A stretch of DNA of 64,000 nucleotides, taken from the IMG/VR virus record IMGVR_UViG_3300025909_000005; one strand, given 5' to 3'. This document shows, piece after piece, positions 28,015 through 28,455 of this stretch; the stretch's first letter is position 1, and every line of letters starts with the position of its first letter. The translations under genes and the position numbers were made by a program. This stretch comes from a virus. Lineage: Duplodnaviria > Caudoviricetes. The notes under the pieces were generated by a model. It made no database searches, was not told the origin of the DNA, and worked only from the letters and a program-made list of their open reading frames with translations.

Positions 28015-28455
28015 ATGGGCCACTCACTACTCAATTGGATCGCAACACAGGGCTTCATCCCGCACGGCTACTGCTTTTCGTGGGATGCAAATTTGATGTG
28101 GTTGATGGTAATCTCTGACATCGTCATTGCACTGTCCTACTACTCAATTCCGCTCGCCCTGCTTTCCTTCCTGGATCGTCGACCTGACATCAAGTTCAGC
28201 TGGGTCTTCGTGCTGTTTTCTGCGTTCATCTTCATGTGCGGCACCACTCACATCATGGAGGTTATCACAATCTGGTATCCGATCTACTGGATCGAGGCGT
28301 GGACGAAGTTCGCAACTGCAGGCGCCAGCTTCATGACCGCGATCCTGCTTTGGCCATTCATGAAGACGGCGGTGTTGCTCGGTGCTCCTGCAATCGTTGT
28401 AAAAGCTGCAGAAGAGCACGCTCAAGAAGAACAATCCAAGACCCAGACCGACTAA
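28015..28455 (+). CDS. Stand-alone ethylene-receptor-type (ETR1-like) ligand-binding TM domain
   Basis: SDIVIALSYYSIP and FIFMCGTTH align with ETR1 D25, Y32, P36, C65, H69. Confidence 0.8.
   Translation: MGHSLLNWIATQGFIPHGYCFSWDANLMWLMVISDIVIALSYYSIPLALLSFLDRRPDIKFSWVFVLFSAFIFMCGTTHIMEVITIWYPIYWIEAWTKFATAGASFMTAILLWPFMKTAVLLGAPAIVVKAAEEHAQEEQSKTQTD

What the first reader, a model, noticed from the sequence alone, without database searches (positions are those of the whole stretch)
28015..28455. Phage-encoded stand-alone ethylene-receptor ligand-binding domain
Seen: a three-TM protein retaining ETR1-type D, Y and P residues and the Cys-x3-His copper site (CGTTH), with no GAF, kinase or receiver domain, behind a late-type promoter. 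Established: bacterial homologs are normally fused to signalling outputs. Inference: a decoy or dominant-negative for a host sensor, or a copper/ethylene sink. It hints at a plant-associated host.
Basis: partly seen in the sequence, partly recalled or inferred. Interest (0 to 1): 0.7.

Follow-up and report, generated by a model that had tools for sequence, protein, structure and literature searches.

The report
Phage stand-alone ethylene-receptor sensor domain
A giant T4-like phage from plant-root soil makes, late in infection, a 146-residue membrane protein that is the intact copper/ethylene-binding part of plant and bacterial ethylene receptors with no signalling part attached, and such cut-down sensor domains turn out to be common in unrelated phages.

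Summary
ORF 28015-28455 (+) encodes a 146-aa protein that matches Pfam ETR1_N (PF25487) at E 1.2e-36 and has no other domain. It keeps D35, Y42, I45, P46, I72, C75-x3-H79 and K98, the counterparts of the ETR1 copper/ethylene pocket. A TAAATA late-type promoter motif lies 30 nt upstream.

The window is a T4-like jumbo phage whose DNA recurs in rhizosphere metagenomes. The gene is kept, with synteny and the same promoter motif, in at least three diverged relatives (51-59% identity), which form one well-supported clade. A homodimer is predicted (score 0.72, best control 0.00).

Viral contigs hold 18 clusters of this domain at 50% identity. Sixteen are domain-only. In contrast, all 80 best bacterial genome relatives are fused to output domains.

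Best reading (confidence about 0.4): an output-less sensor subunit that acts within the membrane on dimer-dependent host ethylene-domain kinases or cyclases. The main rival is a lysis-associated role, since two other phages place the gene beside an endolysin gene. Copper and ethylene binding are untested.

I found no published account. This scan has noted phage ethylene-binding domains before on other DNA.

The parts
27978..27985 (+). Late-type promoter motif cATAAATA (core TAAATA at 27980-27985). It overlaps the TAA stop of the upstream release-factor-like gene and lies 30 nt before the ATG.
   Evidence: TAAATA occurs 23 times against 2.9 expected, upstream of genes on the coding strand, tail-fibre genes included. 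It is conserved 25-32 nt upstream of the orthologues in L001, L007 and L011. The T4 late consensus TATAAATA is established knowledge.
28015..28455 (+). Gene for the 146-aa stand-alone ethylene-binding-domain (ETR1_N) protein, P0001.
   Evidence: ORF. Pfam PF25487 E 1.2e-36. GC3 of 0.68 is typical of the window's genes.
28060..28083 (+). N-terminal periplasmic motif P16-H17-G18-Y-C20-F-S-W23.
   Evidence: P16, H17, C20 and W23 are invariant in 50 relatives. Residues 13-22 lie in the predicted dimer interface. C20 is the only N-terminal residue invariant across all viral lineages aligned.
28087..28179 (+). Transmembrane helix 1 (residues 25-55), with D35, Y42, I45 and P46.
   Evidence: AF2 helix 25-55. 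Conservation. The roles of Asp25 and related residues are described in PMC10266040 and PMC11819568.
28198..28275 (+). Transmembrane helix 2 (residues 62-87), with I72 and the C75-G-T-T-H79 copper site.
   Evidence: AF2 helix 62-87. C75 and H79 are invariant in bacterial relatives and in every viral cluster found.
28285..28377 (+). Transmembrane helix 3 (residues 91-121), with K98, the counterpart of ETR1 Lys91.
   Evidence: AF2 helix 91-121. K98 is nearly invariant. K98 contacts D35 of the other chain in the predicted dimer.
28387..28449 (+). Cytoplasmic C-terminal helix stub (residues 125-145). It aligns with the start of the linker helix that leads to PAS/HisKA in fused relatives.
   Evidence: AF2 helix 125-145. 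Alignment with fused relatives, which read ALALPSPAQL... at this point.
28453..28458 (+). Second TAAATA motif. It overlaps the stop codon of the EBD gene and lies 48 nt before the DUF3309 start.
28506..28655 (+). DUF3309 small membrane protein gene (49 aa), a conserved downstream neighbour in the phage clade. Its membership in the module is uncertain.
   Evidence: Pfam PF11752 E 1.2e-17. It is adjacent in L001/L002 and L007-L009 and one gene away in L011. An RNA-library contig covers it.

Best explanation
P0001 is a genuine, intact ethylene-binding domain (ETR1_N) made as a protein of its own by a T4-like jumbo phage of rhizosphere soil.

Shown or computed:
- It is transcribed from a T4-type late promoter motif.
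- It is a three-helix membrane protein with a short cytoplasmic helix stub.
- It keeps the whole Cu(I)/ethylene pocket and the Asp-Lys coupling pair (D35, Y42, I45, P46, I72, C75, H79, K98).
- It is predicted to form a homodimer through TM1 and TM3.
- It has been kept under constraint in a clade of related phages.

Inferred:
- It binds Cu(I) and ethylene or a similar small ligand.
- Because it has no kinase, cyclase or receiver, it can act only through other membrane proteins.
- Most likely it associates, through the same conserved TM1-TM3 surface, with the host's ethylene-domain sensor kinases or diguanylate cyclases. These enzymes work only as dimers, so mixed dimers would lack one output half. 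The phage protein would then silence or re-tune that host pathway (biofilm, motility, c-di-GMP) in a ligand-dependent way during the late phase of infection.
For: Identity: Pfam ETR1_N E 1.2e-36. There are 8261 representative relatives at E<=1e-3. No better match exists to any solved structure by sequence or by fold.

Pocket: P16, H17, C20, W23, Y42, I45, P46, F68, F71, I72, C75, H79, W87 and Y91 are invariant, and D35 and K98 are nearly invariant, in 50 relatives. The roles of Asp25, Cys65, His69 and Lys91 are described in PMC10266040. The seven binding residues and a proven rhizosphere bacterial receptor are in PMC11819568.

Constraint in phages: orthologues at 51-59% identity in L001/L002, L007-L009 and L011 have conserved gene order. 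Together they form one clade with SH-aLRT 99. 40 of 146 residues are invariant. Two members swap D35/K98 to N/D together.

Output-less by design: there is no remnant of output domains in the window. No HisKA or Response_reg was found in the 97%-complete 349,660-bp relative. 16 of 18 viral clusters are domain-only, whereas 0 of the 80 best bacterial genome relatives are.

Dimer: complex prediction scored 0.72 with a best control of 0.00. The mark was reached by 20 of 30 proteins solved as pairs of one chain and by 1 of 23 solved as single chains. These counts hold only roughly because my own alignment was used. The runs agree in at least 85% of contacts and the pLDDT is 79. The interface is TM1 against TM3 plus residues 13-22.

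Precedent for action in trans: bacterial domain-only EBD genes sit 5-8 nt upstream of membrane hybrid histidine kinase genes in three loci.

Late promoter.

Habitat: 12 rhizosphere metagenome runs other than the possible source hold 25-75% of the sampled words. Laid contigs from a 2017 run and a 2025 run match at 99% or more.

Weak hint of transcription: contigs of a rhizosphere RNA library cover 28290-28445 and 28480-28670, though DNA can be present in such a library.
Against: No host and no host partner are known, and no heterodimer was tested. The homodimer is a prediction only.

Expression from a late promoter, together with virion genes, fits poorly with reprogramming host transcription through two-component systems. 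It fits better with a fast post-translational target such as c-di-GMP, or with lysis.

A pure poison subunit would not need an intact ligand pocket, yet the pocket is the best-conserved part in all phage lineages. This argues for real ligand or cofactor use whose output is unknown.

In two other phages the homologue lies beside an endolysin gene. In many others it lies beside a single-pass coiled-coil membrane protein gene. Both point to phage-internal partners.

Copper and ethylene binding are inferred from residues only. The mapping to ETR1 numbers rests on my memory of the ETR1 sequence plus the cited papers.
Confidence: 0.4

Rival explanations
1. Lysis-associated membrane protein. The three-helix, late-expressed protein acts as a holin, antiholin or lysis-timing sensor. 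It may conduct ions as a dimer or oligomer, so that copper or ligand state or membrane energisation sets when the cell is opened.
For: In Maribacter phage Molly the only ETR1_N protein (Molly1_65, Pfam E 1.5e-16) lies directly upstream of the Amidase_3 endolysin. The published annotation names no holin for Molly, only membrane proteins near the lysin (PMC8776804). In viral contig L013 the EBD gene is followed by a 69-aa coiled-coil and TM ORF and then a GH24-type lysozyme gene. Those lysozyme matches are below the Pfam cut-off for each half (17.2 and 20.9 bits). L015 has a weak NlpC/P60-like gene about 0.8 kb upstream. The topology and the late promoter match class I holins. A preprint reports Ca2+ permeability of dimeric ETR1 (bioRxiv 10.1101/2025.10.20.683334).
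Against: No peptidoglycan hydrolase was recognised among the ORFs scanned within about 8 kb of the gene in this window or in its syntenic relatives. T4-like genomes scatter their lysis genes, so this is weak evidence. No endolysin family was found among the neighbours scanned in seven further viral lineages. There is no Pfam or PHROG holin match. BFVD holin matches are not significant, at E 0.1 or weaker. Holins have no known need for a conserved Cys-His metal site, which every phage copy keeps.
Confidence: 0.22
2. Phage-internal sensor pair. The domain senses its ligand and passes the signal to another phage-encoded membrane protein: here DUF3309 or the adjoining small membrane proteins, and in other phages a single-pass coiled-coil protein. 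No host receptor is involved.
For: The DUF3309 gene is adjacent or one gene away in all members of the clade examined. In at least eight other viral lineages the EBD-only gene adjoins an ORF with one TM helix and a coiled coil. Several clade members carry a coiled-coil-like tail on the EBD itself. RNA-library contigs cover both the EBD 3' part and DUF3309.
Against: Adjacency within one phage clade is inherited synteny, not independent evidence. In L011 a DUF72 gene separates the two. The coiled-coil ORFs have no family assignment and were not shown to be related to each other. No complex was tested.
Confidence: 0.15
3. Copper handling. An abundant late membrane protein that buffers or sequesters Cu(I), or scavenges ethylene, in the infected cell.
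For: Complete Cys-His-Asp copper site. ETR1 binds one Cu(I) per monomer (PMC10266040).
Against: One metal per 146-aa membrane protein is a poor sink. Ethylene is a freely diffusing gas. No copper chaperone, pump or oxidase gene was recognised among the nearby ORFs scanned. The signal-coupling Lys and its co-variation with Asp would be needless for a sink.
Confidence: 0.06
4. Functionless remnant of a captured host sensor gene.
For: The closest relatives are N-termini of bacterial kinases and cyclases at 45-60% identity.
Against: The ORF is intact and has its own conserved promoter motif. It has been kept through divergence to 51-59% identity in at least four phages, with the functional residues invariant. 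Its codon composition is like its neighbours'. There is no remnant of the rest of the gene. Independent phage lineages repeatedly carry the same cut-down form.
Confidence: 0.03

Closest known systems
Ethylene-binding domain of Arabidopsis ETR1 (residues about 1-128; Pfam PF25487 ETR1_N)
   Same: Three transmembrane helices. Cys-x3-His copper site in helix 2. Asp in helix 1 coupled to Lys in helix 3. The Tyr, Ile, Pro and Ile binding residues. Dimeric, by prediction here.
   Different: It has no GAF, histidine-kinase or receiver domain and is 146 aa in all. The N-terminus carries the bacterial PHGxC..W motif in place of the ETR1 Cys4/Cys6 pair (ETR1 sequence from my own knowledge). It is encoded by a phage and driven by a late promoter.
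AzoEtr1 of Azospirillum brasilense and SynEtr1 of Synechocystis (proven bacterial ethylene receptors; PMC11819568, PMC6508509)
   Same: Bacterial-type EBD with the conserved binding residues. AzoEtr1 works in the rhizosphere and controls biofilm formation and root colonisation.
   Different: Those proteins are fused to PAS or phytochrome-like and histidine-kinase domains. P0001 ends about 25 residues after helix 3.
Bacterial two-piece systems: domain-only EBD gene directly upstream of a membrane hybrid histidine kinase gene (L003, L005, L010; proteins P0009, P0010, P0016)
   Same: Domain-only EBD of 132-140 aa with an intact pocket. They show that the domain can work as a separate polypeptide next to a kinase.
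   Different: They form a separate clade. They are translationally close (5-8 nt) to a kinase gene. The phage gene has no kinase neighbour, and the 350-kb relative has no HisKA or receiver at all.
Maribacter phage Molly/Colly protein Molly1_65 (QQO97550.1), the only hit among 50,697 deposited phage genomes
   Same: Phage-encoded ETR1_N domain without a signalling output. Cys-x3-His is kept.
   Different: 36% identity. It is 289 aa with an unassigned C-terminal half. It has Asn for Asp and no Lys98 equivalent. It sits directly upstream of the amidase endolysin. It is annotated only as a hypothetical protein.
Class I holins such as lambda S105 (established knowledge)
   Same: Small, three TM helices, N-out/C-in, charged cytoplasmic tail, late expression.
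   Different: No sequence or significant fold similarity. P0001 belongs to a sensor-domain family with a conserved metal site and lies far from any recognised endolysin.
Truncated plant receptor fragments such as etr1-1(1-349) that act dominantly through full-length receptors (from my own knowledge; not checked in a paper here)
   Same: An N-terminal receptor fragment without kinase changes signalling by associating with intact receptors, which is the logic proposed for P0001.
   Different: The plant fragments are engineered and keep the GAF domain. P0001 is natural, shorter and viral.

Membership tests
ETR1-type ethylene-binding domain (Pfam PF25487 ETR1_N) | Profile match above the curated threshold | tested here: met
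   125.3 bits against a cut-off of 27, E 1.2e-36, profile positions 2-95 of 97.
ETR1-type ethylene-binding domain (Pfam PF25487 ETR1_N) | Three transmembrane helices | tested here: met
   AF2 helices 25-55, 62-87 and 91-121 at pLDDT 87.9. Three hydrophobic segments were found. The N-out/C-in orientation is inferred from the basic loop DRRPDIK and from fused relatives.
ETR1-type ethylene-binding domain (Pfam PF25487 ETR1_N) | Cys and His copper ligands one turn apart in helix 2 (ETR1 Cys65, His69) | tested here: met
   C75 and H79 are invariant in 50 relatives and in all viral clusters. Their role is described in PMC10266040.
ETR1-type ethylene-binding domain (Pfam PF25487 ETR1_N) | Asp in helix 1 and Lys in helix 3 (ETR1 Asp25, Lys91) | tested here: met
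   D35 and K98 are nearly invariant. They are in contact across chains in the predicted dimer. They change together to N and D in two clade members.
ETR1-type ethylene-binding domain (Pfam PF25487 ETR1_N) | Remaining residues required for ethylene binding (ETR1 Tyr32, Ile35, Pro36, Ile62) | tested here: met
   Y42, I45, P46 and I72 are invariant. The paper cites 'seven conserved amino acids'. The residue-by-residue mapping uses my memory of the ETR1 sequence.
ETR1-type ethylene-binding domain (Pfam PF25487 ETR1_N) | Homodimer | tested here: met
   This is a prediction only. Score 0.72, best control 0.00. The mark was reached by 20 of 30 solved one-chain pairs and by 1 of 23 single chains, counts that hold only roughly with my own alignment.
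ETR1-type ethylene-binding domain (Pfam PF25487 ETR1_N) | Binds Cu(I) and, through it, ethylene | not testable with these tools
   This needs copper titration and labelled-ethylene binding.
Ethylene receptor in the full sense (sensor plus output, as ETR1, SynEtr1, AzoEtr1) | Covalently linked signalling output (GAF/PAS plus histidine kinase, GGDEF and the like) | tested here: not met
   146 aa with a single domain. No output remnants in the window.
Bacterial two-piece EBD plus kinase operon | Kinase gene immediately downstream of the EBD gene | tested here: not met
   The downstream genes are DUF3309 and small membrane proteins. The 349,660-bp relative has no HisKA or Response_reg.
Phage holins | Match to a holin family, or position in a lysis cassette next to an endolysin | tested here: inconclusive
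   There is no holin family match and no hydrolase recognised among the nearby ORFs scanned. However, T4-like phages scatter their lysis genes, and homologues in Molly and L013 do adjoin endolysin genes.

The most novel reading that the evidence does not exclude
Phages of many lineages carry output-less ethylene-binding domains as a working copper-based gas or small-molecule sensor. A virus in the rhizosphere would then 'smell' plant ethylene, or a related signal, through its own membrane protein. It would use that signal to time lysis or to switch host c-di-GMP or two-component signalling. This would be a plant-to-virus chemical cue and a new class of phage sensory proteins.
Probability: 0.2. 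Interest if true: 0.9.

Novelty: new variant of a known kind. Interest (0 to 1): 0.7.

Why it matters
The ethylene-binding domain is known as the input module of plant, cyanobacterial and, recently, rhizobacterial receptors. Its structure has never been solved, and I found no solved relative by sequence or by fold.

Three things follow if this holds. First, it adds viruses to the organisms that keep this domain, in a root-soil setting where ethylene is a real signal. Second, the recurrent cut-down form argues that the domain can act through membrane contacts alone, which bears on how ethylene receptors pass on their signal. Third, it offers small natural versions (114-182 aa) for structural and binding studies.

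For phage biology it points to a way of tapping or blocking host sensory pathways with a bare sensor domain. Alternatively, it points to an unrecognised lysis-associated protein family.

Tried and rejected
- Megablast of 5 kb around the gene against deposited phage genomes found no match.
- The whole genome of the window is not held, so the phage's own kinases, cyclases, endolysin and host could not be searched. The 349,660-bp relative was used as a stand-in.
- PDB searches found nothing significant by sequence or by Foldseek. I used this only to exclude a better-fitting known membrane family.
- PHROGs has no family for P0001 or for Molly1_65.
- Literature searches for phage or virus plus ethylene-binding domain or receptor found nothing relevant.
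- The search for related loci with the divergent viral alignment failed for lack of a conserved stretch. The first DNA pattern had too few fixed bases. The corrected pattern worked.
- Endolysin search among neighbours of seven further viral lineages found no family. The holin-T likeness of the paralogues at 34666 and 35541, proposed in scan notes, got no Pfam support.
- The HATPase_c match in the L011 genome lies in a 655-aa frame that I did not resolve. Without HisKA I do not count it as a histidine kinase.
- The careful tree search did not finish, so the quick IQ-TREE result is used. The sister group of the phage clade is unresolved and no donor or host can be named. The best bacterial relatives (40-57% identity) are spread over Beta-, Alpha- and Gammaproteobacteria and other phyla.
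- Only the homodimer was sent to complex prediction.
- dN/dS was not computed, because synonymous sites are saturated at 51-59% protein identity.
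Full report
**The object.** The window holds an ORF at 28015-28455 on the + strand, with an ATG start, 146 codons and a TAA stop. Its product, P0001, matches the Pfam family ETR1_N (PF25487, 'Ethylene receptor 1-like, N-terminal domain') with E 1.2e-36 and 125.3 bits against a curated cut-off of 27, over residues 27-120. Nothing else matches. An AlphaFold2 model built on 50 relatives (mean pLDDT 87.9) has three long helices (25-55, 62-87, 91-121) and a fourth, cytoplasmic helix (125-145). No solved structure resembles it by sequence or by Foldseek (no match at E<=0.001).

**The binding pocket.** I aligned P0001 with 21 and then 49 relatives.
- Invariant: P16, H17, C20, W23, Y42, I45, P46, F68, F71, I72, C75, H79, W87, Y91, T101, S105 and A109.
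- Nearly invariant: D35 and K98.
- C75 and H79 correspond to the copper ligands Cys65 and His69 of ETR1.
- D35 and K98 correspond to Asp25 and Lys91. Asp25 is needed for copper and high-affinity ethylene binding and is coupled to Lys91 for signal output (PMC10266040).
- Y42, I45, P46 and I72 complete the 'seven conserved amino acids' required for binding that were used to recognise the proven Azospirillum receptor (PMC11819568).

The residue-by-residue mapping to ETR1 numbers rests on my memory of the ETR1 sequence, because no tool gave me that sequence.

**Output-less, and not a broken gene.** The protein ends about 25 residues after helix 3. This tail aligns with the start of the linker helix that leads to PAS or HisKA in fused relatives. 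The next genes are a DUF3309 membrane protein (28506-28655, Pfam E 1.2e-17) and a 60-aa two-helix protein. tblastn with twelve fused relatives finds only their first 157 residues or fewer anywhere in the window. The GC3 of the gene (0.68) is typical of the window.

**Promoter.** cATAAATA lies at 27978-27985, 30 nt before the ATG and overlapping the stop codon of the upstream gene. The core TAAATA occurs 23 times in the window against 2.9 expected (none of 100 shuffles reaches 23). Nearly all copies lie 10-60 nt upstream of start codons on the coding strand, including those of the tail-fibre genes. The same hexamer lies 25-32 nt upstream of the orthologue in three related phages whose flanking sequence otherwise differs. 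The T4 late promoter is TATAAATA (established knowledge). 'Late-type promoter' is therefore a fair description, although no transcript start was mapped.

**What carries it.** The window is phage DNA.
- It has 27 tRNA genes in an array.
- It has T4-type long tail fibre proteins, a helicase and an RNA-binding-protein match.
- It has a PrkA/YeaG, YeaH and SpoVR-like gene trio shared with Ralstonia phage RsoM2USA and with 630-640-kb uncultured phages.

Near-identical DNA is held by many runs labelled rhizosphere metagenome. Twelve runs besides the possible source hold 25-75% of the sampled words. They date mostly from 2017-2018, which may be one campaign, plus one run from 2025. Laid contigs of a 2017 run cover the whole 2.9-kb stretch, and contigs of the 2025 run cover part of the gene, at 99% identity or more. 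The host is not known.

Contigs of one rhizosphere RNA library cover 28290-28445 (inside the gene) and 28480-28670 (DUF3309). This is only a weak hint of transcription, because such libraries can hold DNA.

**Conservation in relatives.** Domain-only homologues at 51-59% identity lie in syntenic contigs. The shared order is DUF1003, a release-factor-like gene, the EBD gene, then DUF3309 and shared downstream genes. The contigs are L001/L002, L007-L009 and L011, and L011 comes from a 349,660-bp viral contig rated 97% complete. In a tree with 80 bacterial relatives these sequences, together with P0004, P0005 and P0072, form one clade with SH-aLRT 99. The sister group is unresolved (a quick tree on few columns). 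Within the clade 40 of 146 residues are invariant, including the whole pocket. Two members have Asn35 together with Asp98 in place of Asp35 and Lys98, a paired change at the two coupled positions. This pattern fits a working protein inherited vertically for a long time, not a recent or decaying capture.

**How unusual the bare domain is.**
- In cellular genomes it is rare. All 80 best relatives from one genome per species lie in ORFs of 275-1138 aa.
- The 55 longer database relatives carry HisKA/HATPase_c, GGDEF, PAS, GAF, EAL or receiver domains.
- Only 4 of the best 150 cluster representatives are 170 aa or shorter, and one of those belongs to the phage clade.
- One bacterial clade is naturally two-piece. 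In L003, L005 and L010 a 132-140-aa EBD gene ends 5-8 nt before a hybrid histidine kinase gene whose product has its own two TM helices and a periplasmic domain. This shows that the domain can work as a separate polypeptide beside a kinase.
- In viral contigs the bare form is the rule. A profile-guided search and a DNA-pattern scan of IMG/VR, confirmed with an HMM, gave 18 clusters at 50% identity. Sixteen are domain-only proteins of 114-182 aa. One (Maribacter phage Molly type) has an unassigned 160-aa tail. One (L104, from a 278,859-bp contig) is a complete EBD plus HWE histidine kinase.
- Every copy keeps Cys-x3-His.
- Phage context was verified for several lineages. L122 has terminase and portal genes on either side. 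L099, L108 and L109 have J-type tail proteins. L121 has a minor tail protein.
- Among 50,697 deposited phage genomes only the Molly/Colly group has the domain, annotated as hypothetical. BFVD likewise holds one significant structural match, a 289-aa protein.
- The papers I could search do not mention phage-borne ethylene-binding domains.

**Mechanism, main reading.** A protein with no output can act only through partners. The predicted homodimer passes its controls. The score is 0.72 with a best control of 0.00. The mark was reached by 20 of 30 proteins solved as pairs of one chain and by 1 of 23 solved as single chains, and these counts hold only roughly because my own alignment was used. The runs share at least 85% of contacts, with pLDDT 79. 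The interface is TM1 of one chain against TM3 of the other plus residues 13-22, with K98 touching D35 across chains. That surface is made of the family's most conserved residues, so mixed dimers with a host EBD protein are plausible. This step is inference. Histidine kinases and GGDEF cyclases need two output halves (established knowledge), so an output-less partner would silence or re-tune them. The natural two-piece bacterial systems give a second route, docking on a membrane kinase. I give this reading about 0.4.

**Mechanism, difficulties and rivals.**
- Late expression sits awkwardly with transcriptional reprogramming of the host.
- A pure poison subunit would not need the pocket that all phage copies keep.
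- In Molly the EBD protein lies directly upstream of the amidase endolysin, and the published annotation names no holin there.
- In L013 the gene is followed by a small coiled-coil membrane ORF and a GH24-type lysozyme gene that carries an in-frame TAG.
- L015 has a weak NlpC/P60-like gene nearby.
- A preprint reports that dimeric ETR1 conducts Ca2+.

A lysis-associated role (holin, antiholin or a ligand-gated timer) is therefore a serious rival, which I rate at 0.22. Against it, no hydrolase was recognised among the ORFs scanned near the gene here or in seven other viral lineages, and no holin family or fold matches.

A third possibility (0.15) is a phage-internal partner. DUF3309 is the candidate here. 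Elsewhere the candidate is the single-pass coiled-coil ORF that adjoins the EBD-only gene in at least eight lineages. A copper or ethylene sink (0.06) and a dead remnant (0.03) are unlikely, for the reasons given under the rival explanations.

**Related signalling cargo in these phages.**
- The 350-kb relative has no HisKA and no receiver domain, but it encodes a 377-aa multi-pass membrane GGDEF protein (E 3e-46).
- L001 carries a BLUF gene near the EBD gene.
- L099 carries two PAS-only proteins beside its EBD-only gene.

Bare or minimal sensor modules thus appear to be a recurring cargo.

**Earlier notes of this scan.** The scan has described phage-borne ethylene-binding domains on other DNA: a stand-alone one in a rhizobial phage's lysis cluster, kinase- and cyclase-fused ones, and a bacterial two-piece system. 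It has also described this genome as a rhizosphere jumbo T4-like phage. I treated these notes as leads. The lysis association, the two-piece systems, the fused viral form and the habitat were each re-observed here on my own data.

**Verdict.** The protein is a member of the ETR1_N domain family but is not a complete receptor. It is a new variant of a known kind: a viral, output-less form that recurs across phages. Its mechanism remains open between host-sensor interference and a lysis-linked or phage-internal role.

Noticed in passing
window 27308-27982 (+): The upstream neighbour is a short release-factor-like gene. It has the end of a PCRF domain plus an RF-1 domain with GGQ (Pfam E 8.6e-18). 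It matches only positions 171-336 of a 355-position PHROG. Scan notes say it carries a conserved in-frame UGA.
   Followed up: partly
window 6944-58792 (23 sites): TAAATA occurs 23 times against 2.9 expected, almost always just upstream of start codons on the coding strand and often overlapping the stop codon of the preceding gene. It is a T4-like late promoter core used across accessory as well as tail-fibre genes.
   Followed up: partly
window 45707-50710 (+): A PrkA/YeaG-like kinase (654 aa), a YeaH-like protein (455 aa) and a SpoVR-like protein (496 aa) lie in a row. The trio is shared at 52-58% identity with Ralstonia phage RsoM2USA, Enterobacter phage LAU1 and 630-640-kb uncultured phages.
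   Followed up: partly
window 18291-26861: An array of 27 tRNA genes, several in duplicate or triplicate (His x3, Asn x3, Glu x3, Lys x3, Thr x3), and one call with a two-base anticodon.
   Followed up: no
L017 1474-2607 (-), in the 349,660-bp relative of this phage: A 377-aa protein with about six membrane helices, a coiled coil and an intact GGDEF domain (E 3e-46). This looks like a phage-encoded membrane diguanylate cyclase.
   Followed up: partly
L001 7734-8489 (+): A related phage contig carries a 251-aa BLUF (blue-light sensor) domain protein about 1.5 kb upstream of its EBD gene. No counterpart was seen in the window.
   Followed up: no
L104 2863-3975 (-), 278,859-bp viral contig: A complete ETR1_N plus HWE histidine kinase protein (371 aa) in a very large viral contig. 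It is the only kinase-fused form among the viral clusters found. The phage nature of that contig was not verified.
   Followed up: partly
L099 251-2776 (-): Downstream of a J-type tail protein gene lie a domain-only EBD, a single-pass coiled-coil protein and two PAS-only proteins (Pfam PAS E 2e-12 and 1.3e-15). This is a cluster of sensor domains without outputs.
   Followed up: partly
L013 6408-7064 (+): A GH24-type lysozyme gene next to the EBD gene is interrupted by an in-frame TAG at 6825-6827. This could be recoding, a sequencing error or a broken gene.
   Followed up: no
L003 10001-13143, L005 2347-5492, L010 907-3438: Bacterial operons in which a domain-only EBD gene ends 5-8 nt before a hybrid histidine kinase gene. 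The kinase has its own two TM helices and a periplasmic domain of about 240 aa. This looks like a natural two-piece receptor.
   Followed up: partly
proteins P0004 and P0072 (phage clade): These two members have Asn at the Asp35 position and Asp at the Lys98 position. It is a paired change at the two residues that the ETR1 literature describes as a coupled polar bridge.
   Followed up: no
L099, L111, L112, L113, L120, L121, L122, L130, L013 (next to the EBD gene): EBD-only genes of unrelated viral contigs repeatedly adjoin an ORF for a protein with one membrane helix and a coiled coil. None has a Pfam family, and whether they are related to each other was not tested.
   Followed up: partly
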